A DNA stretch of 64,000 bases from an uncultured Acidobacteriota bacterium (GCA_963792575.1 CAWBWZ010000023.1:1295487-1359486); one strand, 5' to 3'; positions 2,854-31,141 are shown, counted from the first letter of the stretch. Made by a program: numbers and translations. Notes: generated by a model not told the origin, from the sequence alone.

Positions 2854-2880
2854 GGGGGAACGGGCATGAACACCGCCTCC

Positions 2881-3081
2881 GCCCGCAGGGCGGAATCTAT
2901 CCAGCCTGGGGTGTCAACCCCAGGTAGGAGGCCGCCAAGGTCCCCAAGCCCCGAAGGGCCGGCATGTCATTGCCGGTTCGAAACTCCAGCCAGGAGTGTC
3001 GGCCCTTCGGGGCTCATGGGATTTTTGGGGGCTCCCACCTGGGGTTGACACCCCAGGCTGGATAGATTCCGCCCTACGGGC
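2881..3081. repeat. nested-palindrome REP/MITE-like element, family 1, copy A1
   Basis: The 45-nt arms GCCCGCAGGGCGGAATCTATCCAGCCTGGGGTGTCAACCCCAGGT (2881-2925) and 3037-3081 are inverted repeats with 1 mismatch. An inner inverted repeat is AGCCCCGAAGGGCCG / CGGCCCTTCGGGGCT. Confidence 0.85.
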
Positions 3082-16741: not shown

Positions 16742-18188
16742 ATGACAGAGACCGTGGAACCGCGTATCTCGCGCGGGCTGCGCGACCTCCTGCCCGCCGA
16801 CATGCTGGCGCGGCAGTGGATGATCGACACCATTCGCGGCGTCTACGAGCTCTACGGCTTCGTGCCGATCGTCACCCCCGCGATCGAATACCTCGACGTG
16901 CTGCGCGGTTCCGCCGCTGGCTCCGAGGCCCAGCAGTCGATCTTCACCGTCGCAGAACCCGGAGAGAGAGGAGCTCGGGCTCCGCTTCGACCTCACCGTC
17001 CCGCTCGCCCGGGTGATCGCCCAATATCGCGACCTGCCGCGCCCCTTCCGCCGCTACCAGGTGTCGCCGGTCTGGCGCGCCGACAAGCCGGGACAAGGGG
17101 CGCTTCCGCGAGTTCACCCAGTTCGACCTCGACTCGGTCGGGCGTCGTCTCGGAGGTCGCCGACACCGAGATCCTCGCCGGCATGTGCGACACGCCTGAA
17201 CGCCCTCAAGGTGGGGCCGTTCCGGGTGCGCTACTCCTCGCGCGGCATCCTCAACAGCCTGCTCGCCTACTGCCGGCATCCCGCCGGAGCGGGGTGCGGA
17301 CGTCTTCCGCGTGCTCGACAAGCTGGACAAGGTGGGCGCCGGAGAAGGTCCGCCTGGAGCTGACCACCGGCTACTGTCGACGCCTCGGGAGATCCGATCT
17401 CCGGCGTCGGGCTCGCCGAGGAGCAGGTGGACAAGATCGAGCGCTTCCTGAAGATCCGCGCCGACGACCGCCGCGAGGTGGTGGCCCAGCTCCGCGACCT
17501 CTTCGCCGGCGTCGAGGGGGCGGAGGCTGAGATCGCGACCGTCGAACGGATCTCCAGCCATCTCTACTCCCTGGGCTACGGCGACGACCAGGTGTCGCTC
17601 GATCTCTCGATCGCCCGCGGCCTCGCCTACTACACCGGCCCGGTGTTCGAGGCGATCCTGCTCGACGCGCCGCAGTTCGGCTCCGTCTTCGGCGGCGGCC
17701 GCTACGACGATCTGGTGATGCGCTTCCTGGGCGAGAAGGTCCCGGCGGTGGGCGCCTCGATGGGCGTCGACCGCCTGCTCGCGGCGCTGATCCACCTCGG
17801 CCGGACCGGGCACCAGAAGTCGACCGCCAAGGTGCTGATCACCAACATGGACGCCGCCCTCCAGGACGACTACGTCGCGATGACCTGGGAGCTGCGCCGG
17901 GCGGGGATTCCGACCGAGCTCTACCTCGGCACGGCGAAAGGCCCCGGCAAGCAGCTCAAGTACGCCGACGCCTGGGGCGTGCCGATCGCTCTCCTCTACG
18001 GCTCGAACGAGAAGGAGAAGGGGATCGTCACCCTCAAGGACATGGAGATGGGGCGCCAGCGCGCCGAGGCGATCGCCAACCGGCAGGACTGGCTGGAGGA
18101 GCGCCCCGGGCAGCGCGAGGTCCCCCGCGGCGAGCTGGTGGCGACGATCCGCGCCATCCTCGACCAGATCGAGGCGCAGCGGCGATGA
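16742..18188 (+). pseudogene. hisS: histidyl-tRNA synthetase (frame disrupted about 7 times in the first half)
   Basis: [59 protein letters not shown], then the intact ORF 17427..18188 (ARGLAYYTGPVFE, GGGRYD). Confidence 0.9.
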
Positions 18189-19959
18189 GCGACCCGGGGC
18201 ATCCGAGTATCGTCCTCGACGGCTCTTCGCTCAGTCTCGCGGACCTCGCCCGCCTCGCCCGCGATCCGCGGGTGCGGGTGGAGATGCATCCTGAGGCCTG
18301 GGCGCGGGTCGACGCGAGCCGCACGCAGATCGAAGGGATCGTGGCGCGCTACGTCGAGGAGTGGGAGAAGGAGGGGGGACGGCCGGTCCTGGAGTACGGC
18401 GTCACCACCGGCTTCGGCGAGTTCAAGAACGTCCCCATCGCGCCCGACTGCCTGGAGGAGCTGCAGCGCAACATCCTGCTCAGCCACTCGGTGGGCGTGG
18501 GGGAGACGGCCGACGCCGGCAATCCGGCCAACTACTTCGAGCCGGACGTGGTGCGGGCGGCGCTCGTCATCCGGCTGAATGCCTTCCTCAAGGGGCACTC
18601 TGGAATCCGCCGCGCGGTGGTGCTCGCCGTCGAGGCAATGATCAACCGGGGGATCGTGCCGCTGGTGCCCATCCGCGGCTCGGTGGGATCGAGCGGCGAC
18701 CTCTGCCCGCTCTCCCAGCTCTTCGTCGTGCTGCTGGGGGAGAGCCGCTATTACGTCGTTCGCGAGCCAGGGGATTTTGCCTCATAAAACGCGCGAGCTG
18801 CGCTGCGGCCTGGAGCATCTCAAGGAAGACCTCGGCATGGAGGTCCCCGCGCTCAGCTACAAGGACGGGCTGGCGCTCACCAACGGCGCCACCTTCTCGG
18901 CGGCGCTGCTGGCGCTGGCGGTCCACGACGGCGAGCGTCTGGCCGACACCGCGGACGGCGCCCTGTCGCTCAGCCTTGAGGCGGTCTGCGGCTGCGCCCG
19001 CGCCTTCGACGCGCGCGTCCACCAGGCGCGCGGTCTCGCCGGGCAGATCGCGACGCGCGGCGAACATCCGCGCCGGCGATCCGCGGCAGCCAGCTGATCG
19101 AGCGGGCGGGCGCGGTGCAGGACGTCTACTCCCTGCGCTGCGCTCCGGCCGTCCACGGCGCCGCGCGGGACGCCATCGCCTACGCGCGGAAGGTGGCCGA
19201 GGCGGAGATCAACGCCGCGACCGACAATCCGCTCTTCTTTCCCGGGGACGATACGCGCCCCCTGGGATCACGAGTTCCGCGCCAACTGGCCGGCGGGGTA
19301 CGACGGCGGCGAGCGGATCTCCTACTCGGCCGGCAACTTCCACGGCGAGCCGGTGGGCATGGCGGCGGACGTCCTGGCGATCGCGCTGGCCGAGCTGGCC
19401 GACATCTCCGAGCGGCGCACCCAGATGCTGCTCGACGCCACCACAACCGCAACCTCCCCGGCAACCTGATCCCGCACCGCGGGGATCAACTCGGGGCTGA
19501 TGATCATCCAGTATTGCGCCGCCGGCATCGTCTCCGAGAACAAGGTGCTGACCCATCCGGCCACGCGTCGACTCGATCCCCACCTCCGCGAACTCCGAGG
19601 ACCACAACGCCATGGCCACCATCGCCGCCCGCAAGGTGCGGACGGTGCTGCGCAACGCCCAGGCGGTCCTGGCGATCGAGCTGCTGGTGGCCGCCCAGGC
19701 CGTCGAGTGGCGGGTGGCGATGGAGATCGATCCCGCCCGGCCGCGCCCCGCCGCCTCGACCGACTGGGAGCAGGCCAACCGCGAGGCCGAGCAGTTCGAG
19801 GAACGGACGCGTCCCGAGCGGCGGCAGGAGATCGCCGAGCCGCTCGGCGAAGGCACGCGGCGGCTCTATCTCCAGGTGCGGGAAGCGGCGCCGACGATGC
19901 TGCGGGACCGGATGCTGGAGGGGGATATCCGGGCGGTGCTGGGGCTGGTTCAGGGCTGA
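18185..19959 (+). pseudogene. hutH: histidine ammonia-lyase family MIO enzyme (frame disrupted about 5 times)
   Basis: YGVTTGFGEF, LLSHSVGVG (Ser-His as in HAL), [32 protein letters not shown] and [12 protein letters not shown]. Confidence 0.8.
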
Positions 19960-20018: not shown

Positions 20019-20279
20019 ATGGAATGGAACGAGATTCGCCAAACCTACCCGCATCGCTGGCTCCTCGTGGAAGCACTGGAAGCGCACAGTCAATCCGGAA
20101 AAAGAATCCTGGAAGATTTGGCCGTGGTGGATACCTTCCCCGATGGAACGGCGGCCATGCAGGGCTACAAGCAACTGCATCATCGCGCGCCAGAGCGTGA
20201 GCTTTACGTGCTCCACACGGATCGTGAAGACCTCGACGTCGACGAAGTAACCTGGTGGGGACTCCGGGCGGCTCGGTGA
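20019..20279 (+). CDS. small conserved hypothetical protein (possibly DUF5678-like, from memory)
   Basis: Intact 86-aa ORF with the RBS GGAGGA in a locally lower-GC stretch. Its stop overlaps a GTG of the next ORF (GTGA). Confidence 0.55.
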   Translation: MEWNEIRQTYPHRWLLVEALEAHSQSGKRILEDLAVVDTFPDGTAAMQGYKQLHHRAPERELYVLHTDREDLDVDEVTWWGLRAAR

Positions 20280-20671
20280 AGATCCGCATTGAAGGCGGTC
20301 TCCTCTACGTCAGTGCCGAGTTGGTCTACCAGTCCAGGAAGCTCACCTTGAGTGAAGTCATCCTGGATACGGGATCCGCGACGACTCTCTTTTCGGCGGA
20401 TGAAGTTTTCAAGCTCGGTCTCGTTCCTGGGCCAGACGATCCGATCCAGCGTGTCCGGGGAGTTGGAGGTTCCGAGTTCGTGCTTTCGAAGCGGCTCGAC
20501 TCTCTGTCTCTCGGGGATCTGGCCGTGAGCAGCTTTCCGATCCAGATCGGAGCGATGGATTACGGGTTTCCAATTCAGGGGCTGATAGGCCTGAACTTCC
20601 TGGTTCAGGCTGGGGCGGTGATCGATCTGGCCAATCTAGAGATCATTGCCAGTCGAGGTAAACGCTCCTAG
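20255..20671 (+). CDS. retropepsin-like aspartic protease
   Basis: Intact ORF with the D-T-G-S active-site motif (ILDTGSATTLFS) and GLIGLNFL. The GTG at 20276 is a likely alternative start. Confidence 0.7.
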   Translation: MGTPGGSVKIRIEGGLLYVSAELVYQSRKLTLSEVILDTGSATTLFSADEVFKLGLVPGPDDPIQRVRGVGGSEFVLSKRLDSLSLGDLAVSSFPIQIGAMDYGFPIQGLIGLNFLVQAGAVIDLANLEIIASRGKRS

Positions 20672-21045: not shown

Positions 21046-22554
21046 TCACCCGCGCAGCCGCGGAATCTCTCTCCGGATCTCCTCCCGGGTGAGCCCCAGC
21101 AACCCGGCATTCTCCGCCAGAGGCTCCATGTCCACCGGATAGAGCCGGTTCCGCGCCGGATCGGCCAGCCCCGCCAGGTTGCGCGGCGCGATGGCGTTCC
21201 GGATCTCCTCCTCGAAGTCCGGTCCGTGGAGTGCGGCGAGGACACGGTCGAGCATCTCCCTCGTCACCGGATCGGTGCTCCCCAGGAACCCGTTCCAGGC
21301 CCAGCCGTCCGCAGGACCGGGGAGGAGGCGCTGGCTGGCCTCGGCGAAGCTGGCGGCGGCGAAGTAGAGGAGGGAGCCGGCGGCGAAGCGGTCGAAGTCC
21401 CGCATCGTTCCGTAGGCTCCGGCGACGAGCTTCTGGACGTGGTCCGCTTCTGTTTCCAAGAGATCGCCGTAGCGTTGGAGCCCCTCAGGGCCTTTTTCCA
21501 GCAGCAGGGCCAGGCGCTCGACCGCCAGCAGGCTCCAGGCGATCCCCGTCGAGAAGAGCGGCGAGAGGAAGCAGAAGGCGTGCGGGAGGAGGGCCCAGCC
21601 GTTCCCGGACGCCCGCGCGAGGCGGTTCTGGAGGCGGGGGATCTTGCCGATCGGCCGCGTTGGACGGGCTGGAGCGAACTGCTCCCGCAGCGTGGGATAG
21701 CGGGCCAGGAGGCGCTCCCAGGCACGGTCCGGCGCGCAGGAAGACAGCTCTTCGCGGGCGCGCTCCCCGGCGATCACGAAGCCGGCGCTCGCCGTTCCAT
21801 GGTCGAAGGGGAGGACGTACATCCACCCTTCCTCCAGGATGTGGTGGACGGCCGCCTGCTCGTCCGGATAAGGACCGGCAGGGAGTGCCGCGTTTCCCGC
21901 GACCTCGGAGAAGCCGGCCATCCCCTCGAAGTGCCCGAAGACCAGGGAGGTATGTAGCCCGGTCTCGACCCTGGGGATCGGGAGGTGCCGCGCCAGAAAG
22001 CCGCCCGGTCCGGAGGCGTCGATCAGGAGATCGGCCTCGAAGTGGACGGACCGCCCCTGGTGCGTTCCCGAGAGACGCCAGCCGCCGGGCAGCTTCTCCA
22101 GACCGGTCAGATCGACCTCTTCCAGCACCTCGACTCCCGCCGCTCCGGCTTCCTGGGCGAGGTGGTGATCCACATCCTCCCGCAGCCAGTGGGTGTCGGC
22201 GATGCGGTCCGTGGGGCTGGCGGCTACCAGCAGCCGGCGCTCGTTGGCGGGGCCGTTCTTGAACCGTCGTCCCGGCTCGTGGCCGTAGAAGGTGAACCCC
22301 CGCTTGAGCCCCCGGCGCAGATGGGGGAGCCGCTCCATCCAGCGACCCCAGGCGGCGAGGGCGTGGAGGTCTTCGAGACCGTAGCGCGCGGCGAGGCGTT
22401 CCAGGCAGATCGCGGCGAGCGGAGTGGAGGACTCGCCGAGGGCGAAGCGGGGGTGCTTCTGCCGGTCGAGGAGGAGCACCCGGTGCCCCTGAATCTGGAG
22501 GATGCGGGCGAGGATCGAGCCTGCGAAACCAGAGCCGACGATGGCGATCCTCAA
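21046..22554 (-). CDS. FAD-dependent oxidoreductase, flavin-halogenase / geranylgeranyl-reductase-like
   Basis: Intact 502-aa ORF with N-terminal IAIVGSGFAGS (GxGxxG), ALGESSTP and GWMYVLPF. Confidence 0.65.
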   Translation of the reverse strand: MRIAIVGSGFAGSILARILQIQGHRVLLLDRQKHPRFALGESSTPLAAICLERLAARYGLEDLHALAAWGRWMERLPHLRRGLKRGFTFYGHEPGRRFKNGPANERRLLVAASPTDRIADTHWLREDVDHHLAQEAGAAGVEVLEEVDLTGLEKLPGGWRLSGTHQGRSVHFEADLLIDASGPGGFLARHLPIPRVETGLHTSLVFGHFEGMAGFSEVAGNAALPAGPYPDEQAAVHHILEEGWMYVLPFDHGTASAGFVIAGERAREELSSCAPDRAWERLLARYPTLREQFAPARPTRPIGKIPRLQNRLARASGNGWALLPHAFCFLSPLFSTGIAWSLLAVERLALLLEKGPEGLQRYGDLLETEADHVQKLVAGAYGTMRDFDRFAAGSLLYFAAASFAEASQRLLPGPADGWAWNGFLGSTDPVTREMLDRVLAALHGPDFEEEIRNAIAPRNLAGLADPARNRLYPVDMEPLAENAGLLGLTREEIRREIPRLRG

Positions 22555-22590
22555 GATCCTCCTCCACAGACGACACAGCCAACCCGCGGC

Positions 22591-23511
22591 TCAGACACAG
22601 CCTGAGCGGTTCATGCGATCGAGCCGGGCGAGGCGCGCATCCGCGCAGTGCGGGCAACTCGCGAAGCGGCGGACATCCCAGAGATCGGCGGTCACGATTC
22701 CGAGATCCAGAGAGCGTTCCAGGGCCTCTTCAAGCTGATCGAGCCGGGGCGGGATGAAGTCCCCGGCTTCCCGGAGGGCCTCCATGGCGCCGTTGCCGCC
22801 GCGGACGGGGATCAGCGAGACGCGCTCCGCCCCCTGCTCGAAGGCGTGAATAGCGGAGCGGACCGCCCACTCGGCCGCCTCCTCCGGCGGCACGAAGGGG
22901 GCGCCCACCAGCACGAAGGCCCGCATGCCGATCCCCGCGTGTCGCAAGGTCCCGGCGGCGCGGTCGAAGTCGTCGAGGGTCAGCCCCTTGTTCAGGCGGG
23001 GCAGGGCCTCGGGATGGACCGTCTCCAGTCCCATCGCCACCTCCAGCCGGCCGGCGAGCCGTTCGGCGAAGCGCAGGCAGCGGTCGCCGATGAGGCGGGG
23101 GTGGCATTCCACGGTGACGCGGGCGAAGGGGGCGGCGAGAGCGAGGATCTCGTCCTCGTCCTCGACCGGCACCGCCCGTGGCTCGAAGAAGTTGCTGGCG
23201 TTGTAGAGCTTCACCGCCGCCGGGCTCGGGAGGGGACCCGCCGCGGCGAGGGCCTTGCGGAACTGGGCGGGCAGCGCGCCCGGGGGCGTCGGGCCGTCGA
23301 GGGTCTCGCGCCAGAGGTCGCAGAAGACGCAGGTGAAGGGGCACTCGGCGCCGGCGAGGAAGATGGTGAAGGCGGGGAGGACCCCGCCGTCCGGCGTGCG
23401 CTCCTCCTCCCAGAGGTGCCCGATGGGCTCTTGGGGATCGATCAGCCGTCGGGGGGCCCGCAGCGAGCGGACCCAGCGCGAGGACGCTTCCTTCACCCGC
23501 TTAGCTCCCAC
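22591..23511 (-). CDS. radical SAM protein, unassigned subfamily
   Basis: Intact 306-aa ORF with Cx3Cx2C in AGAECPFTCVFCDLW (23320-23343) and a C-terminal CPHC. Confidence 0.7.
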   Translation of the reverse strand: MGAKRVKEASSRWVRSLRAPRRLIDPQEPIGHLWEEERTPDGGVLPAFTIFLAGAECPFTCVFCDLWRETLDGPTPPGALPAQFRKALAAAGPLPSPAAVKLYNASNFFEPRAVPVEDEDEILALAAPFARVTVECHPRLIGDRCLRFAERLAGRLEVAMGLETVHPEALPRLNKGLTLDDFDRAAGTLRHAGIGMRAFVLVGAPFVPPEEAAEWAVRSAIHAFEQGAERVSLIPVRGGNGAMEALREAGDFIPPRLDQLEEALERSLDLGIVTADLWDVRRFASCPHCADARLARLDRMNRSGCV

Positions 23512-23534
23512 GCTGTTCGTTGAAGGCGCTCTGA

Positions 23535-23780
23535 ACGTAGGGGAGGGGCTTGTCCCCTCCCTCGCCCCGAAGGGGCGGAATTTATCCAGCCTGGGGTGTC
23601 AACCCCAGGTAGGAAGGCACCCCGGAATCCAAACCCTGTAAGGGTGGCCGATTCCAGCCCGATCGGCCACCCCTTCGGGGTTTGGGTGGGTTGGGCCACC
23701 CAACCTGGGGTTGACACCCCAGGCTGGATAAATTCGCCCCCTTTGGGGGCGAGGGAGGGGACAAGCCCCTCCCCTACGTA
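23535..23780. repeat. nested-palindrome REP/MITE-like element, family 1, copy A2
   Basis: Inverted arms of about 70 nt, ACGTAGGGGAGGGGCTTGTCCCC...GCCCCGAAGGGGCGGAATTTATCCAGCCTGGGGTGTCAACCCCAGGT. The core is near-identical to A1. Confidence 0.85.
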
Positions 23781-23810
23781 TAAAAACGTCTTGGGCAAGC
23801 TGTATTGCAC

Positions 23811-25140
23811 TTAGCTCTGGTAGAGGCTCAGCAGGTGGCTCCGGTACTTCACGGGGCGGAGATCGAACCGGCCGCGGAAGGTCTCCTCCGATACCGCGCC
23901 GTGCTGGAACCGCCGCTTGGGGAAGACGGGAAGATCGAGCCCGGTCACCTTTTGGATGCCTCGCCGCAAGACTTCCCCCTTCAGGCTGTAGAGCGCCTCG
24001 TGGGAGCCGCGGGTCAGCTCGGCGAAGGGGATGGCCTCGGCCACCGCGATCACCTGCGGGCGGCTGTAGGGGCTGAAGGGGAGGAAGCCGTGGCGCCGGG
24101 CGGGGGCGTAACCCCGGACGCAGCCGCGGCTCAGGCCCCCGCTGTAGGTGAGCGAGTGCTTGATCGCCTCCACCCCCCAACCCTCCTGGTAGAGCATGCG
24201 GTTGTTGACCACGCTGCGGATGGTCAGCTCGGGGTTCTCCTCGATCGGATAGTCCTTGAGGTTCTCGTCGCCGCCGTCGCCGTCGGCGAGGTGGCGCCAG
24301 TCGGGGTAGCGCTCGCGGATGCCCTGGCAGCAGGGCGAGGTTCATCGCCGCGCACTCGACGTCGAGCGGCTTGTAGTCCTCGATCGCCGCGACGGCCGCG
24401 AAGGGGTCGATATCGGCGCTCCTGGCCTCGATCACCTCGCCGAAGAGCTGGAGATCGGTACGGCGGAGGAACTCCCGGGCCTGCTCGAGATCGGCGCCGC
24501 CGCCGTCGACGGCGAGGGTGAACGCCTTGAGCCGGGCCGGACTCTGTCCGGCGGCGAGCAGCTCGTGGTAGAGGGCGAGCAGCAGCGCGCCGCTGTCGAT
24601 GCCGCCGGAGAAGAGGACGCCCAGGGGCTCGGCCGCGGGCAGGGCGGCCAGCCAGAGGCGGATCTCCTCGCAGAGGGCGCGGACGTAGGCCTCGCCGATG
24701 ACGTCGAGGTCCGGCGGCAGCACCTCGCGCGGCGGATCGAAGAAGCGCCGGTAGACCGGGTTGGGATCGGGGCAGCCGACGAGCTGGATCTCGGTGACGT
24801 GGTGGGCCGGGATCATCCGCGTGTAGGAGGGATGGAACTGGTCGCCGTGCCCCTCGCGCTCCAGCGCGTCGCGGATCTGGTCGATGCGGTCGGCGACCAC
24901 CAGCATCGGGCCGTCCTTCTCCTTGGCCAGGAAGTAGCGCAGCGGGCGGTCGAGGCTGCGCGCCAGGCGCACCCGCTGGCCGTCGCGGGCGAGGAGGGCG
25001 AAGGAGCCCTCGATCCGCAGGACGTCGGCGGGGTCCTCCGAGAGCAGGAGGGCGCGGGCGTCGTCCACGGAAAGATTGAGGATCTGCTGGTCGTCGTCGG
25101 CGACGAGGTTGAGGATGCGGGCGATGGTCTGGTGTCGCAA
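23811..25140 (-). pseudogene. asparagine-synthase-like PP-loop enzyme lacking the N-terminal Cys nucleophile (one frameshift near 24325)
   Basis: TTG start at 25140, about 10 nt after GAGGAG. LFSGGIDSG at 24565-24582. The C-terminal part is in ORF 23811..24212. Confidence 0.75.
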
Positions 25141-25172
25141 GGTGGTGCGTCTCCTCTTCGTTGGAGGGGATT

Positions 25173-26177
25173 CTAGCCTGGACGCCGGATCGCCACGATC
25201 GTCTCGTCCTCGGTGTAATACCCGGCGTCCGACCAGGCGTCCAGCCCCCCTTCGAGGGGGCGGACCCGGGTGAAGCCTTTGTCCATCAGAGCGCGAGCCA
25301 CACGGGCCGCGGAGGCTTCGCTCGGTCAGGCACAGTAGAGGACGATCTCGCGCTCCCGCGGCAACTCGCCGAGCCGGACGTCGATCTCGTCGATCGTCAT
25401 CCGCAACGCTCCGGGGAGGCGCCGCGGGTCGTGGAGATGGGAGGAACGGTTGCGGACGTCGACGATGGTCGGCGCGTTGCCGCTGTCCATCAGGCTCTTC
25501 AGCTCGGCGACCGAGATGCGGGCGAGCCGCAGGATCTTCCGGATCCGCCGCCGCTGCCACCATTTCACCAGGATGACCAGCGCCAGCACCACGCCCACGA
25601 CCACGCCGGCCCAGAAGCCGAGATCCTCCAGATGGCGGAGAACCTCGTTCACGGCATGATGGAAGACGTAGCCGAGCAGCAGGCCGGAGCTCAGCCAGAG
25701 GAGGCTGCCGAGGCCGTCCCAGAAGAGGAAGGAGGGGATGGTCTTGTTCATCGCTCCGGCGAGCGGCGGCGCGATGGTGTTGTAGCCGGGGAGGAACTTG
25801 GCGTAGAGCAGGGACGGCATGCCGGCCCGCTCGAAGAGATCCTCGGTGCCGCGGACGCAGGAGTCGGGGGAGAGCGAGAGGCGGCAGACCGTGCGGAGCA
25901 CGCGGTGCCCCTGCCAGCGGCCGATCAGGAACCAGATGGTGTCGGCGAGCAGCGACGCCGCGAGGGCCACGGCGAGCACCGGGACGACGGCCATTTTCCC
26001 CCCCTGCGCCAGCGCCCCGGCGACGATCAGCGTCGGCAGCGCGGGGATCGGCGCGCCGATCTGCTCCAGGAAGACGTTGCCGAAGACGACCGCGAGGCCA
26101 TAGCGGAGGAGGTAGGTGACGAGCTTGTGCATGGCGGGGGGTATTGTCGCATGGGGCGGAGGGAGGTGAGCCTGCAT
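25173..26177 (-). CDS. DedA-family membrane protein fused to a rhodanese domain; in-frame TGA at 25326-25328
   Basis: ORF 25326..26177 has the DedA core (VFLEQIGAPIP...LYAKFLPG) and a rhodanese start (TIVDVR...IVLYCA). After the TGA the same frame continues PSEASAARVARALMDKGFTRVRPLEGGLDAW to a TAG at 25173. The true start may be ATG 26132. Confidence 0.65.
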
Positions 26178-26556: not shown

Positions 26557-28045
26557 GGAGACATCGCCCGCGCGGGCACGCGCCACACTGGTCGCGACCG
26601 TCACGACCCTCCCCGCGGGGAGCGCCGTGCCCATGGTCTCCGACCTGGAGGGGGTCGACTGGCTGGAGATCCGCGCCGATCTCGTCGGCGACCTCGACGC
26701 CGCGCGTCTGGCCCGCGTCTTCCCCGGCAAGCTGCTCTACACGCTGCGCAGCCGGGCCGAGGGGGGCGGGTCCGAGGGGACGCCCGAGCGCCGCCGACAG
26801 CGGCTTGATCGAGGCCGCCAGCCGCTACGACTATGTGGACCTCGAGGCGGCGCGCGATCTCACTCCCGATATCCTCAAGGGCGTGCCGGCCGAGAAGCGG
26901 GTGATCTCCTGGCATGGGCCGGCCCCGGGGCTCGACGGCCTCACCGCCACCTTCGAGCGGATGGCCGCCGTCCCCGCCGCGCTCTACAAGCTGGTGCCCA
27001 CCGCCGCCCAGGCGGGGGAGGAGGTGCAGGCGCTGCTGCTGCTCGCCTCGCTCGGCCGCCGCGACGTCGCCGCCTTCGCCGCCGGCGCCATCGGCGCCTG
27101 GACGCGGCTGGTGGCCCCCCGCCTGGGCGCCCCGGTGGTCTACGGCGCGCTCGGTGAGGTGCCGGGGGCGCCAGGGCAGATCTCGATCGAGCGCCTGCGG
27201 CGCGACTACGGCCTGCCGGAGTTGCCGCCCATCGAAGCGCTGTTCGGCCTGGTCGGCAACCCCGTCACCCACTCGCTCTCCCCCCGCATCCACAACACCG
27301 CCTACCGCGCGCTGGGCATCCCGGCGGTCTATCTGCCGTTCCACGCCGACTCCTTCGGCGACTTCTGGCTGGAGGTGATGGAGAACGCGGGGCTGGAGGC
27401 GATCGGGCTCTCCATCCGCGGGCTCTCGGTGACCGCGCCGTTCAAGGAGTCGACGCTGGCGGTCTGCGGCGCGGAGAGCCCGCTGGTCAGCCTGATCGGC
27501 GCCGCCAATACGCTGGTCTGCAACCAGGGGGTGTGGGAGGCGGAGGCCACCGATCCGGACGGCGTCGTGCTGCCCCTGCGCGATCGCGGCCTCGCGATCG
27601 AGGGGATGGAGGTGGCGGTGGTCGGCGCCGGCGGTGCCGGGCGATCGGCGGCGGCGGGGCTCGACCGCGCCGGCGCGCGGGTGACGATGTTCAACCGCGA
27701 TCCGCAACGCGGCAAGAGCTCCGCGCGATCATCTGCATGTCACCTTCCGGCCGCTCGCGGATCTCGACCCCTCCCGGTTCGACCTGCTGGTCAACGCCAC
27801 CTCGCTCGGCCGCGGCGCGGACGATCCGCTGCCGTTCGACGTCTCGCGGCTCCGCGAGGGCGCGGTGGTGATCGACCTCGTCTACTTCCCGGACCGGCCG
27901 ACCCGCCTGCTGACGGCGGCGGCGGCGCGGGGCGCGGTGGCGATCGACGGCCGCGAGGTGCTGGTGGATCAGGCCCGCGGGCAGTTCCGGCTGATGACCG
28001 GGCGCGACCTGCCGCTCGAGCTGGCCCGCCGGGCCGCCGGATTGA
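26555..28045 (+). pseudogene. aroD/aroE: fused 3-dehydroquinate dehydratase (type I) / shikimate dehydrogenase (frame disrupted; 3' end uncertain)
   Basis: TTG start. VDWLEIRADLVGDL (DHQase I). LVGNPVTHSLSPRIHN, SVTAPFK and VVGAGGAGRSAA (AroE). Frame switches near 26800 and 27715. Confidence 0.8.
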
Positions 28046-29642: not shown

Positions 29643-30942
<1,300 letters not shown>

Positions 30943-30953
30943 ATCCGTTGTTT

Positions 30954-31114
30954 CCAGCCCCGAAGGGGCGGCATTTGAATAGCCTGGGGCGTAAGCCCCA
31001 GGTAGGAGTGTCCCCAATACCCCCGAGCCCCGAAGGGGCGACACACAATGTGCCGGCGGGGTTTACCTGGGGCTCACGCCCCAGGCTATTCAAATGCCGC
31101 CCCTTCGGGGCTGG
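30954..31114. repeat. nested-palindrome element, family 1, copy B (hisD|hisC gap)
   Basis: CCAGCCCCGAAGGGGCGGCATTTGAATAGCCTGGGGCGTAAGCCCCAGGTA and its inverted copy, 30954-31004 / 31064-31114. Confidence 0.85.
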
Positions 31115-31141
31115 GGATGGGGTGGCTCGGAGGGTGGCCGC

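What the first reader, a model, noticed from the sequence alone, without database searches (positions are those of the whole stretch)
21046..26177. Compact minus-strand operon of unknown function: DedA-rhodanese, Cys-less AsnB paralogue, radical SAM, flavin-halogenase-like enzyme
Four genes are co-directional with short gaps: about 30 nt between the rhodanese stop (25173) and the AsnB-like TTG (25140), and 36 nt between the radical SAM and FAD genes. The one larger gap is filled by repeat A2. The enzyme set is an ATP-dependent amide- or ring-forming PP-loop enzyme, a small radical SAM protein with CPFTCVFC, a 502-aa FAD protein with GxGxxG/GESSTP/GWMYVLPF, and a membrane sulfurtransferase-like protein. 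I cannot map this set to a characterised pathway. It sits beside a histidine ammonia-lyase. It is the best candidate in the window for an undescribed small-molecule or cofactor-modification cassette.
Basis: inference. Interest (0 to 1): 0.6.

Follow-up and report, generated by a model that had tools for sequence, protein, structure and literature searches.

The report
Orphan ligase, radical-SAM, halogenase cassette
Three of the four genes form an uncharacterised enzyme cassette that soil bacteria of several phyla gain and lose as a unit, while the fourth gene (a membrane selenoprotein) is only a resident neighbour; the cassette's product is unknown and may involve new amide-forming chemistry.

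Summary
The four minus-strand genes exist at the stated coordinates. Two details were missed. The AsnB-like frame is broken by one extra base at 24327. The DedA-rhodanese gene has an in-frame TGA in an LYCAU motif, which is a selenocysteine codon.

The real unit is three genes: a Cys-less AsnB-like PP-loop ligase, a RaSEA/MnmL/Elp3-type radical SAM enzyme, and a PltM/CtcP-like flavin halogenase.
- 70 of 80 loci from at least five phyla keep this order, mostly with overlapping junctions.
- In 401 Acidobacteriota genomes the counts are 38, 37 and 35. The ligase and radical SAM enzyme co-occur almost perfectly, and the halogenase-like gene never occurs without them.

DedA-rhodanese is not part of the cassette. 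It stays at the same chromosomal site in 10 relatives that lack the trio, one of them 93-95% identical in DNA.

The 299-nt gap is a palindromic repeat with about 40 genomic copies. It is absent at this junction in relatives. The frameshift is probably an assembly error, because hisD and aroE are also frameshifted and dN/dS is 0.05-0.2.

No database family, paper or solved structure explains the trio. My preferred mechanism, an ArcS-RaSEA-like ligation followed by radical N-dealkylation and then halogenation, is inference only. The trio is linked to secreted FG-GAP/ASPIC proteins.

The parts
21046..22554 (-). Flavin-dependent halogenase-like protein, 502 aa (third gene of the cassette)
   Evidence: Intact ORF. 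Pfam Trp_halogenase 2e-14. Best solved relatives are CtcP (7xgb) and PltM (6bzt), E 2e-37 over residues 3-350. GxGxxG and Lys84 (GLKRGFxF) are invariant in 67 homologues; the WxWxIP motif is degenerate.
22591..23511 (-). Radical SAM enzyme, 306 aa, CX3CX2C = C57/C61/C64 (second gene, hub of the cassette)
   Evidence: Pfam Radical_SAM. TIGR01210 RaSEA scores 66 bits against a cut-off of 212; TIGR01212 MnmL E 1e-4. AF2 pLDDT 96.9; the best folds are Elp3 radical-SAM domains. More than 6000 database relatives carry only generic names.
23512..23810 (.). Inserted palindromic repeat element (MITE/REP-like), core 23535-23780, splitting the normally overlapping ligase/radical-SAM junction
   Evidence: Self-complementary at 84% over about 245 nt, with copies at 2876-3074 and 30957-31121. 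RNA fold -232 kcal/mol, z = -18. 81 matches over both strands (about 40 places) in the genome. Absent at this junction in syntenic L096 and L101. 54 of 70 loci have junctions within 30 nt.
23811..24326 (-). AsnB-like ligase, C-terminal part (171 codons plus stop), read in the second frame
   Evidence: Aligns to residues 270-440 of the family profile. dN/dS is 0.11 against L096.
24327..24327 (-). Extra base that breaks the AsnB-like frame; probably an assembly indel
   Evidence: Contigs of close relatives in three metagenomes lack one base here. All 69 homologues are unbroken. hisD and aroE in the same window are also frameshifted. Genome completeness is only 75.7%.
24328..25140 (-). AsnB-like ligase, N-terminal part (271 codons, TTG start, GAGGAG about 8 nt upstream). 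It has a truncated Ntn domain without Cys2 and the PP-loop SGGIDS.
   Evidence: Pfam Asn_synthase 9e-9. The AF2 model of the 90%-identical L003 copy has pLDDT 89; the best fold is beta-lactam synthetase 1mbz, E 3e-12, followed by ASNS, AsnB, TsnB9 and CarA.
25173..26177 (-). DedA(VTT)-rhodanese fusion selenoprotein, TGA = Sec at 25326-25328. It is a resident neighbour, not part of the cassette.
   Evidence: Pfam VTT_dom and Rhodanese. NF041203 rhodanese_LYCAU scores 85 bits. The TGA is conserved in all 5 + 26 orthologous loci. selA, tRNA-Sec and selB pieces are in the genome. The gene persists at the same site without the trio.

Best explanation
The real feature is a self-contained three-gene accessory cassette. 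The order is AsnB-like ligase, then radical SAM enzyme, then flavin-halogenase-like enzyme.

Shown:
- The three genes are inherited, gained, lost and degraded as a unit.
- The ligase and the radical SAM enzyme are an obligate pair. The halogenase-like enzyme is a frequent partner that never occurs without them.
- The cassette is under purifying selection in this lineage.

Inferred mechanism:
1. The ligase keeps the ATP-pyrophosphatase (PP-loop) half of asparagine synthetase but has no glutaminase nucleophile. It adenylates a carboxylate and couples it to the amino group of a donor molecule, probably an amino acid.
2. The radical SAM enzyme's nearest families (RaSEA, MnmL) remove alkyl groups from nitrogen. 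It would cut the donor's carbon skeleton away and leave an amide or amidine nitrogen.
3. The PltM/CtcP-like flavoenzyme has an invariant catalytic lysine. It would halogenate, or otherwise oxidise, an electron-rich ring of the same substrate.

The product is unknown. It is probably a small metabolite or cofactor, and it may be functionally tied to secreted FG-GAP/ASPIC beta-propeller proteins.

In this genome:
- A palindromic repeat has been inserted between genes 1 and 2.
- The single frameshift in gene 1 is most likely a consensus error.
- The DedA-rhodanese selenoprotein next door is an independent resident gene.
For: Conservation:
- 437 relatives of the radical SAM gene were confirmed in one-genome-per-species contigs. 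70 of the best 80 loci carry all three genes in the same order and strand. They come from Acidobacteriota, Gemmatimonadota, Planctomycetota, Verrucomicrobiota, Armatimonadota and a 'Deltaproteobacteria' MAG.
- 54 of 70 ligase/radical-SAM junctions lie within 30 nt, and many are 4-nt overlaps.

Co-occurrence in one sample of 401 Acidobacteriota genomes:
- Radical SAM 37, ligase 38, halogenase-like 35.
- All three 35; the pair alone 2; the ligase alone 1 (a 510-contig MAG); the halogenase-like gene alone 0.
- Fisher p about 1e-51 and 2e-48.
- The complete Singulisphaera sp. PoT genome has the pair but no halogenase-like gene.

Unit behaviour in close relatives:
- At a conserved site, the trio lies after DedA-rhodanese in some genomes and before it in others.
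- It is absent in 10 genomes, one of them 93-95% identical in DNA.
- It is reduced to short remnants in L105 and L106.

Selection: dN/dS is 0.05-0.22 for every gene, including both halves of the ligase.

Enzyme assignments:
- Ligase: SGGxDS and DGDGGDENLKDYP are invariant and no Cys2 is present. The fold is closest to beta-lactam synthetase and AsnB.
- Radical SAM: the best family hits are RaSEA and MnmL and the best folds are Elp3.
- Flavoenzyme: CtcP and PltM at 2e-37, with Lys84 aligned to their G-x-K-x-G-F lysine and invariant in 67 of 67 sequences.

The ArcS-RaSEA chemistry (lysine added, then removed by RaSEA) is taken from PMC11298593.
Against: - No experiment, paper or named family bears on the product. 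The ligate-then-dealkylate mechanism rests on analogy with families that the radical SAM protein does not formally join (66 bits against a cut-off of 212).
- The WxWxIP halogenase motif is degenerate: W-x-[Y/W]-x-L-[R/P]. The flavoenzyme could therefore be a monooxygenase.
- The ligase could simply use free ammonia or act as a cyclase, as beta-lactam synthetase does.
- No transporter, regulator, carrier protein or flavin reductase is consistently linked.
- I found no RNA evidence of expression.
- The link to FG-GAP/ASPIC proteins fits a protein-maturation role as well as a small-molecule role.
Confidence: 0.4

Rival explanations
1. The trio is a protein or peptide maturation system. It modifies a residue of a secreted FG-GAP/ASPIC (CRTAC1-family) beta-propeller protein, or of an unlinked peptide, before export. 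The precedents are QhpD (radical SAM) with QhpG (flavoprotein) building the quinone cofactor of QhpC, and LodB/GoxB.
For: - FG-GAP/ASPIC genes lie within 8 kb of the trio in 22 of 80 loci from several phyla. In 14 of these an RnfD/NqrB-like membrane protein is also present.
- All 37 trio-bearing Acidobacteriota genomes have ASPIC-domain genes, against 184 of 364 without the trio. Fisher p is 6e-11, or 1.5e-5 by genus, not corrected for phylogeny.
- One ORF found on two independent contigs runs from the radical SAM domain straight into an FG-GAP/ASPIC lipoprotein-like protein.
- The flavoenzyme gives weak hits to QhpG (62 bits), GoxB and LodB.
Against: - 58 of 80 loci, including this 64-kb window, have no such neighbour.
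- ASPIC genes are common: 55% of the phylum has them, often in more than 10 copies.
- No conserved short ORF flanks the trio.
- The flavoenzyme is far closer to the small-molecule halogenases PltM and CtcP (132 bits) than to QhpG.
Confidence: 0.2
2. The cassette modifies a nucleic-acid base in tRNA or DNA. The PP-loop enzyme and the radical SAM enzyme would act on a 7-deazaguanine-like or uridine-derived intermediate, as in archaeosine or mnm5U synthesis.
For: - The three nearest relatives of the radical SAM enzyme by family or fold (RaSEA, MnmL/YtqA, Elp3) are all tRNA-modifying enzymes.
- PP-loop ATPases are common in tRNA modification. The fold search also returns TtuA and LarE at lower rank.
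Against: - The distribution is patchy: 9% of Acidobacteriota genomes and 22 of 228 genera.
- The trio is lost between relatives that are 93-95% identical, and decays to remnants. That is unusual for a translation-related function.
- The ArcS domain DUF5591 is absent from the genome.
- The obligate association of a PltM-like halogenase with RNA or DNA modification has no precedent that I know of.
- No tRNA or tgt gene is linked.
Confidence: 0.1
3. One reading: all four genes are one functional operon. The DedA-rhodanese selenoprotein would deliver sulfur or selenium to the PP-loop enzyme, or move the product across the membrane.
For: - The genes are co-directional, with a 32-nt gap to the ligase gene.
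- In 14 of 26 orthologous loci the trio abuts DedA-rhodanese, in two different arrangements, both co-directional with short spacers.
- PP-loop plus rhodanese is the ThiI logic for thiolation (established knowledge).
Against: - DedA-rhodanese is next to the trio in only 5 of the 80 trio loci.
- It persists at the same aro-his | DedA-rhodanese | HAL site in 10 of 26 loci that have no trio. Examples are L094 (93-95% DNA identity) and L097, where only 25 nt separate it from the HAL side.
- It stays intact, with its TGA, next to trio remnants in L105 and L106.
Confidence: 0.07
4. The cassette is dead or dying in this particular genome. On this reading the frameshift in the ligase and the 299-nt hairpin element between genes 1 and 2 are real lesions.
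For: - The frameshift at 24327 is in the sequence.
- The repeat insertion replaces a normally overlapping junction and would fold at -232 kcal/mol in the mRNA.
- Relatives L105 and L106 show that the trio does decay in this clade.
Against: - hisD, aroE and selB are also frameshifted, and genome completeness is only 75.7%. This points to consensus indel errors.
- dN/dS is 0.11 downstream of the frameshift.
- The other two genes are intact and 92-97% identical to those of L092 and L096.
- The reads of the source sample could not be found, so the base itself was not checked.
Confidence: 0.15

Closest known systems
ArcS-RaSEA archaeosine synthase (Euryarchaeota; RaSEA = NCBIfam TIGR01210)
   Same: A group-adding enzyme is paired with a small radical SAM enzyme of the same branch of the superfamily. 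In the archaeal system lysine is added to preQ0 and RaSEA then removes its carbon skeleton, leaving nitrogen (PMC11298593). Here the ligase and radical SAM genes are translationally coupled and co-occur in 37 of 38 genomes.
   Different: The radical SAM protein scores 66 bits against a cut-off of 212. The partner is an ATP-dependent AsnB-like PP-loop enzyme, not ArcS, and DUF5591 is absent from the genome. The system is bacterial, patchy in distribution and associated with a halogenase. The substrate is unknown.
Beta-lactam synthetase (BLS) and carbapenam synthetase (CarA)
   Same: These are the best structural matches of the ligase model: 1mbz E 3e-12, TM about 0.6, with CarA also listed. Both are AsnB descendants that have lost the N-terminal Cys nucleophile and use ATP to form an amide bond.
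   Different: Sequence identity is only 11-20%. The ligase is shorter (442 aa). No clavulanate or carbapenem genes are nearby. The BLS catalytic Tyr/Glu/Lys residues were not examined. The obligate radical SAM partner has no counterpart.
Phenolic flavin-dependent halogenases PltM (6bzt) and CtcP (7xgb)
   Same: E 2e-37 over about 350 residues. GxGxxG, the GESxxP region and the catalytic lysine in G-x-K-x-G-F are all conserved.
   Different: WxWxIP is replaced by W-x-[Y/W]-x-L-[R/P]. The C-terminal 150 residues are unrelated. There is no polyketide or pyoluteorin context. Halogenation has not been shown.
MnmL/YtqA (TIGR01212) and Elp3 radical-SAM domains
   Same: MnmL is the second-best family hit and Elp3 gives the best structural matches, E 1.6e-7. 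All belong to one branch of small radical SAM enzymes.
   Different: The scores are far below the cut-offs. There is no acetyltransferase domain and no tRNA-linked context.
Ammosamide tailoring enzymes Amm3 (flavin halogenase) and Amm20 (asparagine-synthetase-like amidotransferase)
   Same: This is a precedent for a flavin halogenase and an AsnB-type enzyme decorating one small aromatic acid with chlorine and a primary amide (PMC12715798).
   Different: Amm20 is annotated as an ordinary asparagine synthase. The pathway depends on a scaffold peptide and PEARL enzymes that are absent here. It has no RaSEA-type radical SAM enzyme.
rhodanese_LYCAU (seleno)protein family, NF041203 (for the neighbouring gene)
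   Same: The exact LYCAU motif, with U encoded by TGA. The TGA is conserved in 31 orthologous loci. selA, tRNA-Sec and selB pieces are present in the genome.
   Different: Here the rhodanese domain is fused to an N-terminal DedA/VTT membrane domain. The score is 85 bits against a cut-off of 115, obtained with Cys substituted for Sec.

Membership tests
RaSEA (TIGR01210, archaeosine biosynthesis radical SAM protein) | Score at or above the curated cut-off of 212 bits | tested here: not met
   66.3 bits. The whole-genome search gives 65.7 bits as the only match, while three control genomes exceed the cut-off.
RaSEA (TIGR01210, archaeosine biosynthesis radical SAM protein) | An ArcS partner (DUF5591 domain) in the same genome | tested here: not met
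   PF17884 has no match in the genome. It is found in the three euryarchaeal controls.
Radical SAM superfamily | CX3CX2C cluster motif and the partial TIM-barrel fold | tested here: met
   C57, C61 and C64 are invariant in 54 sequences. Pfam PF04055 scores 31 bits against a cut-off of 29.5. The AF2 model has pLDDT 96.9 and matches Elp3, LipA and PFL-AE.
Flavin-dependent halogenase | GxGxxG FAD-binding motif | tested here: met
   G7, G9 and G12 are invariant in 67 of 67 sequences.
Flavin-dependent halogenase | Catalytic lysine that carries or guides the hypohalous acid | tested here: met
   K84 in G-L-K-R-G-F aligns with the K of PltM 'GIKLGF' and CtcP 'GQKSNF'. It is invariant in 67 of 67 sequences. 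Its role in PltM and CtcP is taken from established knowledge.
Flavin-dependent halogenase | WxWxIP motif | tested here: inconclusive
   The window reads W-M-Y-V-L-P. Across the family the first W is invariant, the second position is Y in 47 and W in 20, I is replaced by an invariant L, and P is R in 37 and P in 18.
Flavin-dependent halogenase | Halide-dependent halogenating activity | not testable with these tools
   This needs an enzyme assay.
Asparagine synthetase B (TIGR01536, glutamine-hydrolysing) | N-terminal Cys nucleophile of the Ntn glutaminase domain | tested here: not met
   The protein starts MRHQTIARI. No Cys is conserved near the N-terminus in 50 sequences.
Asparagine synthetase B (TIGR01536, glutamine-hydrolysing) | Score at or above the curated cut-off of 267 bits | tested here: not met
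   26.3 bits.
AsnB superfamily (PP-loop synthetase domain) | SGGxDS PP-loop and the two-domain AsnB fold | tested here: met
   S178-G-G-x-D-S183 is invariant. Foldseek matches BLS, ASNS, AsnB, TsnB9 and CarA at E 3e-12 to 7e-10.
Beta-lactam synthetase / carbapenam synthetase | Catalytic Tyr-Glu dyad and Lys, and a beta-lactam gene cluster context | not tested
   The residues were not mapped. No clavulanate or carbapenem genes occur among the conserved neighbours.
Lasso peptide cyclase (AsnB-like C protein) | An adjacent precursor peptide and a B-protein protease or RRE | tested here: not met
   No conserved short ORF lies within 700 nt of the trio in the 80 loci. No such neighbour appears in the ORF clustering.
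rhodanese_LYCAU (seleno)protein NF041203 (neighbouring gene) | LYCAU motif with TGA-encoded Sec, and Sec machinery in the genome | tested here: met
   The motif and TGA are present. The TGA is conserved in 31 loci, followed by about 30 invariant nt. selA scores 548 bits, tRNA-Sec 72 bits, and selB is present in pieces.
rhodanese_LYCAU (seleno)protein NF041203 (neighbouring gene) | Score at or above the cut-off of 115 bits | tested here: not met
   85.3 bits with Cys in place of Sec. The domain is fused to a DedA domain.
   DedA-rhodanese is next to the trio in 5 of 80 trio loci. In 10 of 26 DedA-rhodanese loci the trio is absent at the same syntenic site.
Known anti-phage defence systems (PADLOC) | A match to any PADLOC model | tested here: not met
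   None of the three proteins gives a hit.

The most novel reading that the evidence does not exclude
The AsnB-like ligase and the RaSEA-type radical SAM enzyme together would be a previously unrecognised, glutamine-independent way of installing an amide or amidine nitrogen.
1. The ligase adenylates a carboxylate and couples it to a whole amino acid.
2. The radical SAM enzyme excises the donor's carbon skeleton. This is ArcS-RaSEA logic moved onto an ATP-activated carboxylate.
3. The halogenase-like enzyme tailors the same scaffold.

The product would serve, or be attached to, the secreted FG-GAP/ASPIC beta-propeller proteins with which the cassette co-occurs.
Probability: 0.2. Interest if true: 0.8.

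Novelty: new variant of a known kind. Interest (0 to 1): 0.55.

Why it matters
- **A family-sized gap.** The three enzymes come from well-studied superfamilies, but they form a fixed combination that no described pathway uses. The radical SAM family has 573 clusters at 50% identity with E <= 1e-30, from soil, rhizosphere, sponge and freshwater bacteria of at least five phyla.
- **Possible new chemistry.** If the ligase and radical SAM pair works as proposed, it would add a new route of nitrogen transfer to those known for amidotransferases. It would also give RaSEA-type enzymes a role outside archaeal tRNA.
- **An unusually widespread halogenase.** The halogenase-like partner would be one of the most widely distributed flavin halogenases that has no known product.
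- **A natural experiment.** The presence, absence and remnant states found here among near-identical genomes offer ready material for comparative metabolomics.
- **A concrete place to look.** The link to FG-GAP/ASPIC proteins points to where the biological role might be found.

Tried and rejected
- **Literature.** Six full-text searches combined TIGR01210, RaSEA, asparagine synthase, halogenase, Acidobacteria, ASPIC and FG-GAP. None found a paper on the trio. The sponge-halogenase preprint and the ammosamide paper describe other systems.
- **Curated families.** Every NCBIfam hit for the three enzymes is far below its cut-off. PADLOC gave nothing.
- **Solved structures by sequence.** Nothing was found for the radical SAM enzyme. 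The ligase matched only the PP-loop core of ASNS and AsnB.
- **RiPP precursor.** No conserved short ORF lies beside the trio.
- **Other conserved neighbours.** Apart from the FG-GAP/ASPIC and RnfD-like set, the recurrent neighbours are clade-specific housekeeping genes (holB, tmk, moeA, pilC and others) and are therefore uninformative.
- **Expression.** No RNA run holds the stretch.
- **Source reads.** The best public run holds only 36% of the sampled words. The extra base at 24327 could therefore be compared only with relatives.
- **Promoters and terminators.** The counts do not exceed the shuffled expectation.
- **Gap repeat against plasmids.** No match.
- **SECIS fold.** The simple fold of the 71 nt around the TGA is no better than shuffles (z = -0.46). 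The support for selenocysteine comes from conservation and from the machinery genes instead.
- **My own gene caller.** A GC3-based caller failed on the lower-GC loci and was dropped.

Full report
**1. What is in the sequence**

- **FAD protein:** 22554..21046, 502 aa.
- **Radical SAM protein:** 23511..22591, 306 aa, with CPFTCVFC.
- **AsnB-like protein:** starts at TTG 25140.
- **DedA-rhodanese fusion:** 26177..25173.

The stated gaps are correct: 36 nt and 32 nt. Two things were not stated.

- The AsnB-like frame changes at base 24327. It reads ...AAMNLALL in one frame and QGIRERYPDW... in the next. The whole-genome search also finds the gene in two pieces.
- The rhodanese domain has an in-frame TGA at 25326-25328, in the context LYCA-TGA-PSE.

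**2. Family assignments**

FAD protein:
- Pfam Trp_halogenase, E 2e-14.
- The best solved relatives are the phenolic halogenases CtcP and PltM, E 2e-37 over residues 3-350.

Radical SAM protein:
- The only family hits are RaSEA (TIGR01210, 66 bits against a cut-off of 212) and MnmL/YtqA.
- No solved relative was found by sequence.
- The AF2 model (pLDDT 96.9) is closest to Elp3 radical-SAM domains.

AsnB-like protein:
- Only the PP-loop core matches Pfam Asn_synthase and the PDB sequences of ASNS and AsnB.
- An AF2 model of the unbroken, 90%-identical L003 copy (pLDDT 89, pTM 0.90) is closest to beta-lactam synthetase. Human ASNS, E. coli AsnB, TsnB9 and carbapenam synthetase follow.

DedA-rhodanese:
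- VTT domain plus Rhodanese domain.
- The best NCBIfam hit is 'rhodanese_LYCAU, rhodanese-related (seleno)protein'.

Public sources give the first three proteins only generic or automatic names.

**3. The conserved unit is three genes**

A scan of one genome per species confirmed 437 relatives of the radical SAM protein. I kept the best 80 loci.

- 70 of the 80 carry ligase, radical SAM and flavoenzyme genes in that order on one strand. They come from Acidobacteriota (several classes), Gemmatimonadota, Planctomycetota, Verrucomicrobiota, Armatimonadota and a 'Deltaproteobacteria' MAG.
- 54 of 70 ligase/radical-SAM junctions are within 30 nt, and many are 4-nt overlaps.

I searched one evenly drawn sample of 401 Acidobacteriota genomes with each of the three proteins.

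| Gene set | Genomes |
|---|---|
| Radical SAM | 37 |
| Ligase | 38 |
| Halogenase-like | 35 |
| All three | 35 |
| Ligase and radical SAM pair only | 2 |
| Ligase only (a 510-contig MAG) | 1 |
| Halogenase-like only | 0 |

- Fisher p is about 1e-51 and 2e-48.
- Where a gene was missing from a locus, the ligase was usually elsewhere in the same genome.
- The halogenase-like gene is truly absent from the complete Singulisphaera sp. PoT genome and from two MAGs.

So the ligase and the radical SAM enzyme are an obligate pair. The flavoenzyme is a dependent, dispensable third member. The cassette occurs in only 9% of the phylum (22 of 228 genera), so it is accessory rather than housekeeping.

**4. 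The fourth gene is a resident neighbour**

Only the five closest trio loci have DedA-rhodanese nearby, and the trio lies on either side of it. I searched with the DedA-rhodanese protein itself and found 26 orthologous loci, all with the TGA. DNA synteny with the window shows a conserved site: aro-his operon | DedA-rhodanese | HAL side. At that site the trio has four states.

| State of the trio | Loci |
|---|---|
| After DedA-rhodanese | window, L092, L093, L095, L096, L098-L101, L108, L109, L113 |
| Before DedA-rhodanese | L103, L104, L116 |
| Absent | L094, L097, L102, L107, L110-L112, L114, L115, L117 |
| Short ordered remnants | L105, L106 |

- L094 is 93-95% identical to the window in DNA on both flanks, yet it lacks the trio.
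- In L097 only 25 nt separate DedA-rhodanese from the HAL side.

It also shows that the three genes are gained, lost and degraded together.

**5. Selenocysteine**

- The TGA is conserved in all 31 orthologous loci, as [LV]YC[AT]-TGA-P-[NS]-E. In the six closest sequences it is followed by about 30 invariant nucleotides.
- The genome has selA (548 bits, over the cut-off), a tRNA-Sec (72 bits, over the gathering score) and a selB gene in frameshifted pieces.
- A simple fold of the downstream RNA is no better than shuffled sequence.

**6. Peculiarities of this copy**

The gap repeat:
- The 299-nt gap between ligase and radical SAM genes is an imperfect palindrome. It is 84% self-complementary and folds at -232 kcal/mol, z = -18.
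- It belongs to a dispersed family with 81 matches over both strands, about 40 places, in the genome. Two more copies lie in the window.
- Syntenic relatives L096 and L101 lack it, and their two genes nearly abut.

The frameshift:
- Contigs of close relatives in three independent metagenomes lack one base at this spot.
- All homologues are unbroken.
- hisD (about 30460) and aroE (about 27700) in the same window are also frameshifted, and HAL has at least five frame changes.
- The assembly is only 75.7% complete by marker genes.
- dN/dS against the nearest relatives is 0.05-0.22 for all parts, including 0.11 downstream of the shift.

I therefore read the frameshift as a consensus error, with perhaps a 15% chance that it is real. 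The source reads were not available to me.

**7. Conserved residues**

- **Flavoenzyme (67 sequences):** GxGxxG and K84 in G-L-K-R-G-F are invariant. K84 aligns with the lysine in the G-x-K-x-G-F stretch of PltM and CtcP. WxWxIP is degenerate: W invariant, then Y in 47 or W in 20, L invariant, then R in 37 or P in 18.
- **Ligase (50 sequences):** SGGxDS and DGDGGDENxKDYP are invariant, along with many other residues. Mean column identity is 65%. There is no N-terminal Cys.
- **Radical SAM (54 sequences):** C57, C61 and C64 are invariant.

**8. Clues to function**

- No conserved short ORF flanks the trio.
- No defence-system model matches.
- No transporter, regulator or carrier protein is conserved across the loci.

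The one recurrent partner set is secreted-type FG-GAP/ASPIC (CRTAC1-family) proteins, some with TPR repeats, together with an RnfD/NqrB-like membrane protein.

- FG-GAP/ASPIC genes lie within 8 kb in 22 of 80 loci from several phyla. The RnfD-like gene is present in 14.
- All 37 trio-bearing Acidobacteriota genomes have ASPIC-domain genes, against 184 of 364 others. Fisher p is 6e-11, or 1.5e-5 by genus, with no phylogenetic correction.
- An 896-aa ORF on two independent contigs runs from the radical SAM domain into an FG-GAP/ASPIC protein with its own lipoprotein-like leader.
- This window has no such gene. The genome has at least seven elsewhere.

**9. Mechanism: inference only**

The preferred reading rests on three points.
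- The ligase has no glutaminase.
- The nearest families of the radical SAM enzyme are N-dealkylating enzymes. RaSEA removes the lysine skeleton from preQ0-lysine (PMC11298593). The MnmL role is from my own knowledge of the NCBIfam name and the recent literature.
- The two genes are coupled and co-occur almost perfectly.

This suggests ligation of an amine donor to an adenylated carboxylate, followed by radical removal of the donor's skeleton. The flavoenzyme would then halogenate or oxidise the scaffold. Membership in RaSEA is not met: the score is below the cut-off and no ArcS domain is in the genome. The claim is 'works like', not 'is'.

The rivals are listed with odds: protein maturation tied to FG-GAP/ASPIC proteins, nucleic-acid modification, a true four-gene unit, and a dead copy.

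**10. Relation to earlier notes of this scan**

At least ten earlier follow-ups on other genomes described the same trio and the same ArcS-RaSEA analogy. These are not independent evidence.
- the three-way co-occurrence table;
- the presence, absence and remnant series at one syntenic site;
- the exclusion of DedA-rhodanese from the cassette;
- the genome-wide ASPIC co-occurrence and the read-through ORF;
- the finding that this assembly carries many frameshifts, which bears on other notes about this window.

**Verdict**

The trio is a real, uncharacterised enzyme cassette built from known superfamilies in a combination that has not been described. Interest is moderate to high. The fourth gene, the repeat and the frameshift are ordinary.

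Noticed in passing
window 30400-30560 (hisD), 27650-27760 (aroE part of aroD/E), 18185-19959 (HAL); also G000 contig C11:15572-17465 (selB): Housekeeping genes in this assembly carry frameshifts. hisD changes frame near 30460 and aroE near 27700. HAL changes frame at least five times, and selB is found in three pieces. Marker completeness is only 75.7%. The aro-his-trp block is therefore not a run of intact frames as deposited. Indel errors of a long-read consensus are the likely cause. HAL's higher density of breaks could mean a true pseudogene.
   Followed up: partly
window 23535-23780, 2876-3074, 30957-31121: A dispersed palindromic repeat family of about 245 nt. It gives 81 matches over both strands (about 40 places) in the genome at 72-93% identity. 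It would form a hairpin of about -230 kcal/mol in RNA, so it looks MITE- or REP-like. It has no match in the plasmid collection.
   Followed up: partly
window 25173-26177; loci L001-L005, L092-L117: The DedA(VTT)-rhodanese fusion has a selenocysteine codon in [LV]YC[AT]U-P-[NS]-E in all 31 orthologous loci. In the six closest sequences about 30 invariant nucleotides follow the TGA, which makes a likely SECIS. A membrane-anchored LYCAU rhodanese appears to be a clade-specific architecture of Thermoanaerobaculia.
   Followed up: partly
L118:6001-8691 and L119:6001-8691 (protein P0382): An 896-aa ORF, identical on contigs from two different samples, joins a trio-type radical SAM domain (residues 5-307) to an FG-GAP/ASPIC protein. 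The second part starts with its own Met and a lipoprotein-like leader (..LFGC..). It looks like two adjacent genes with no stop codon between them. No ligase or halogenase-like gene is among the genes called on that contig.
   Followed up: partly
L024:10652-15843, L060:10382-16052 and 12 further loci: Next to the trio, in Gemmatimonadaceae, Acidobacteriaceae, Gemmataceae, Singulisphaera and Bryobacteraceae, there is a conserved block. It holds an RnfD/NqrB-like membrane protein (about 300 aa, motifs NPTNF and FFMITDP) and one or two FG-GAP/ASPIC proteins, some with TPR repeats.
   Followed up: partly
L105:5035-5973 and L106:1838-2529: Short, ordered remnants of the trio lie directly upstream of an intact DedA-rhodanese gene: radical SAM and flavoenzyme in L105, all three genes in L106. 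They are deletion scars showing that the cassette decays in some lineages.
   Followed up: yes
window 18600-18650 (HAL): The HAL-like gene reads GSVGSSGDLCPLS where histidine ammonia-lyases usually have the Ala-Ser-Gly triad that forms the MIO cofactor. Here it is Ser-Ser-Gly. I did not check whether this is a known variant or another sequence error.
   Followed up: no
window 20255-20671: The small ORF in the lower-GC islet between the trio and HAL is a retropepsin-like aspartyl protease (Pfam Asp_protease_2, E 7e-10). Its 86-aa upstream partner and the 109-aa ORF on the other strand have no Pfam match. The islet is absent together with the trio in L097, but partly present in L112 and L105.
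   Followed up: partly
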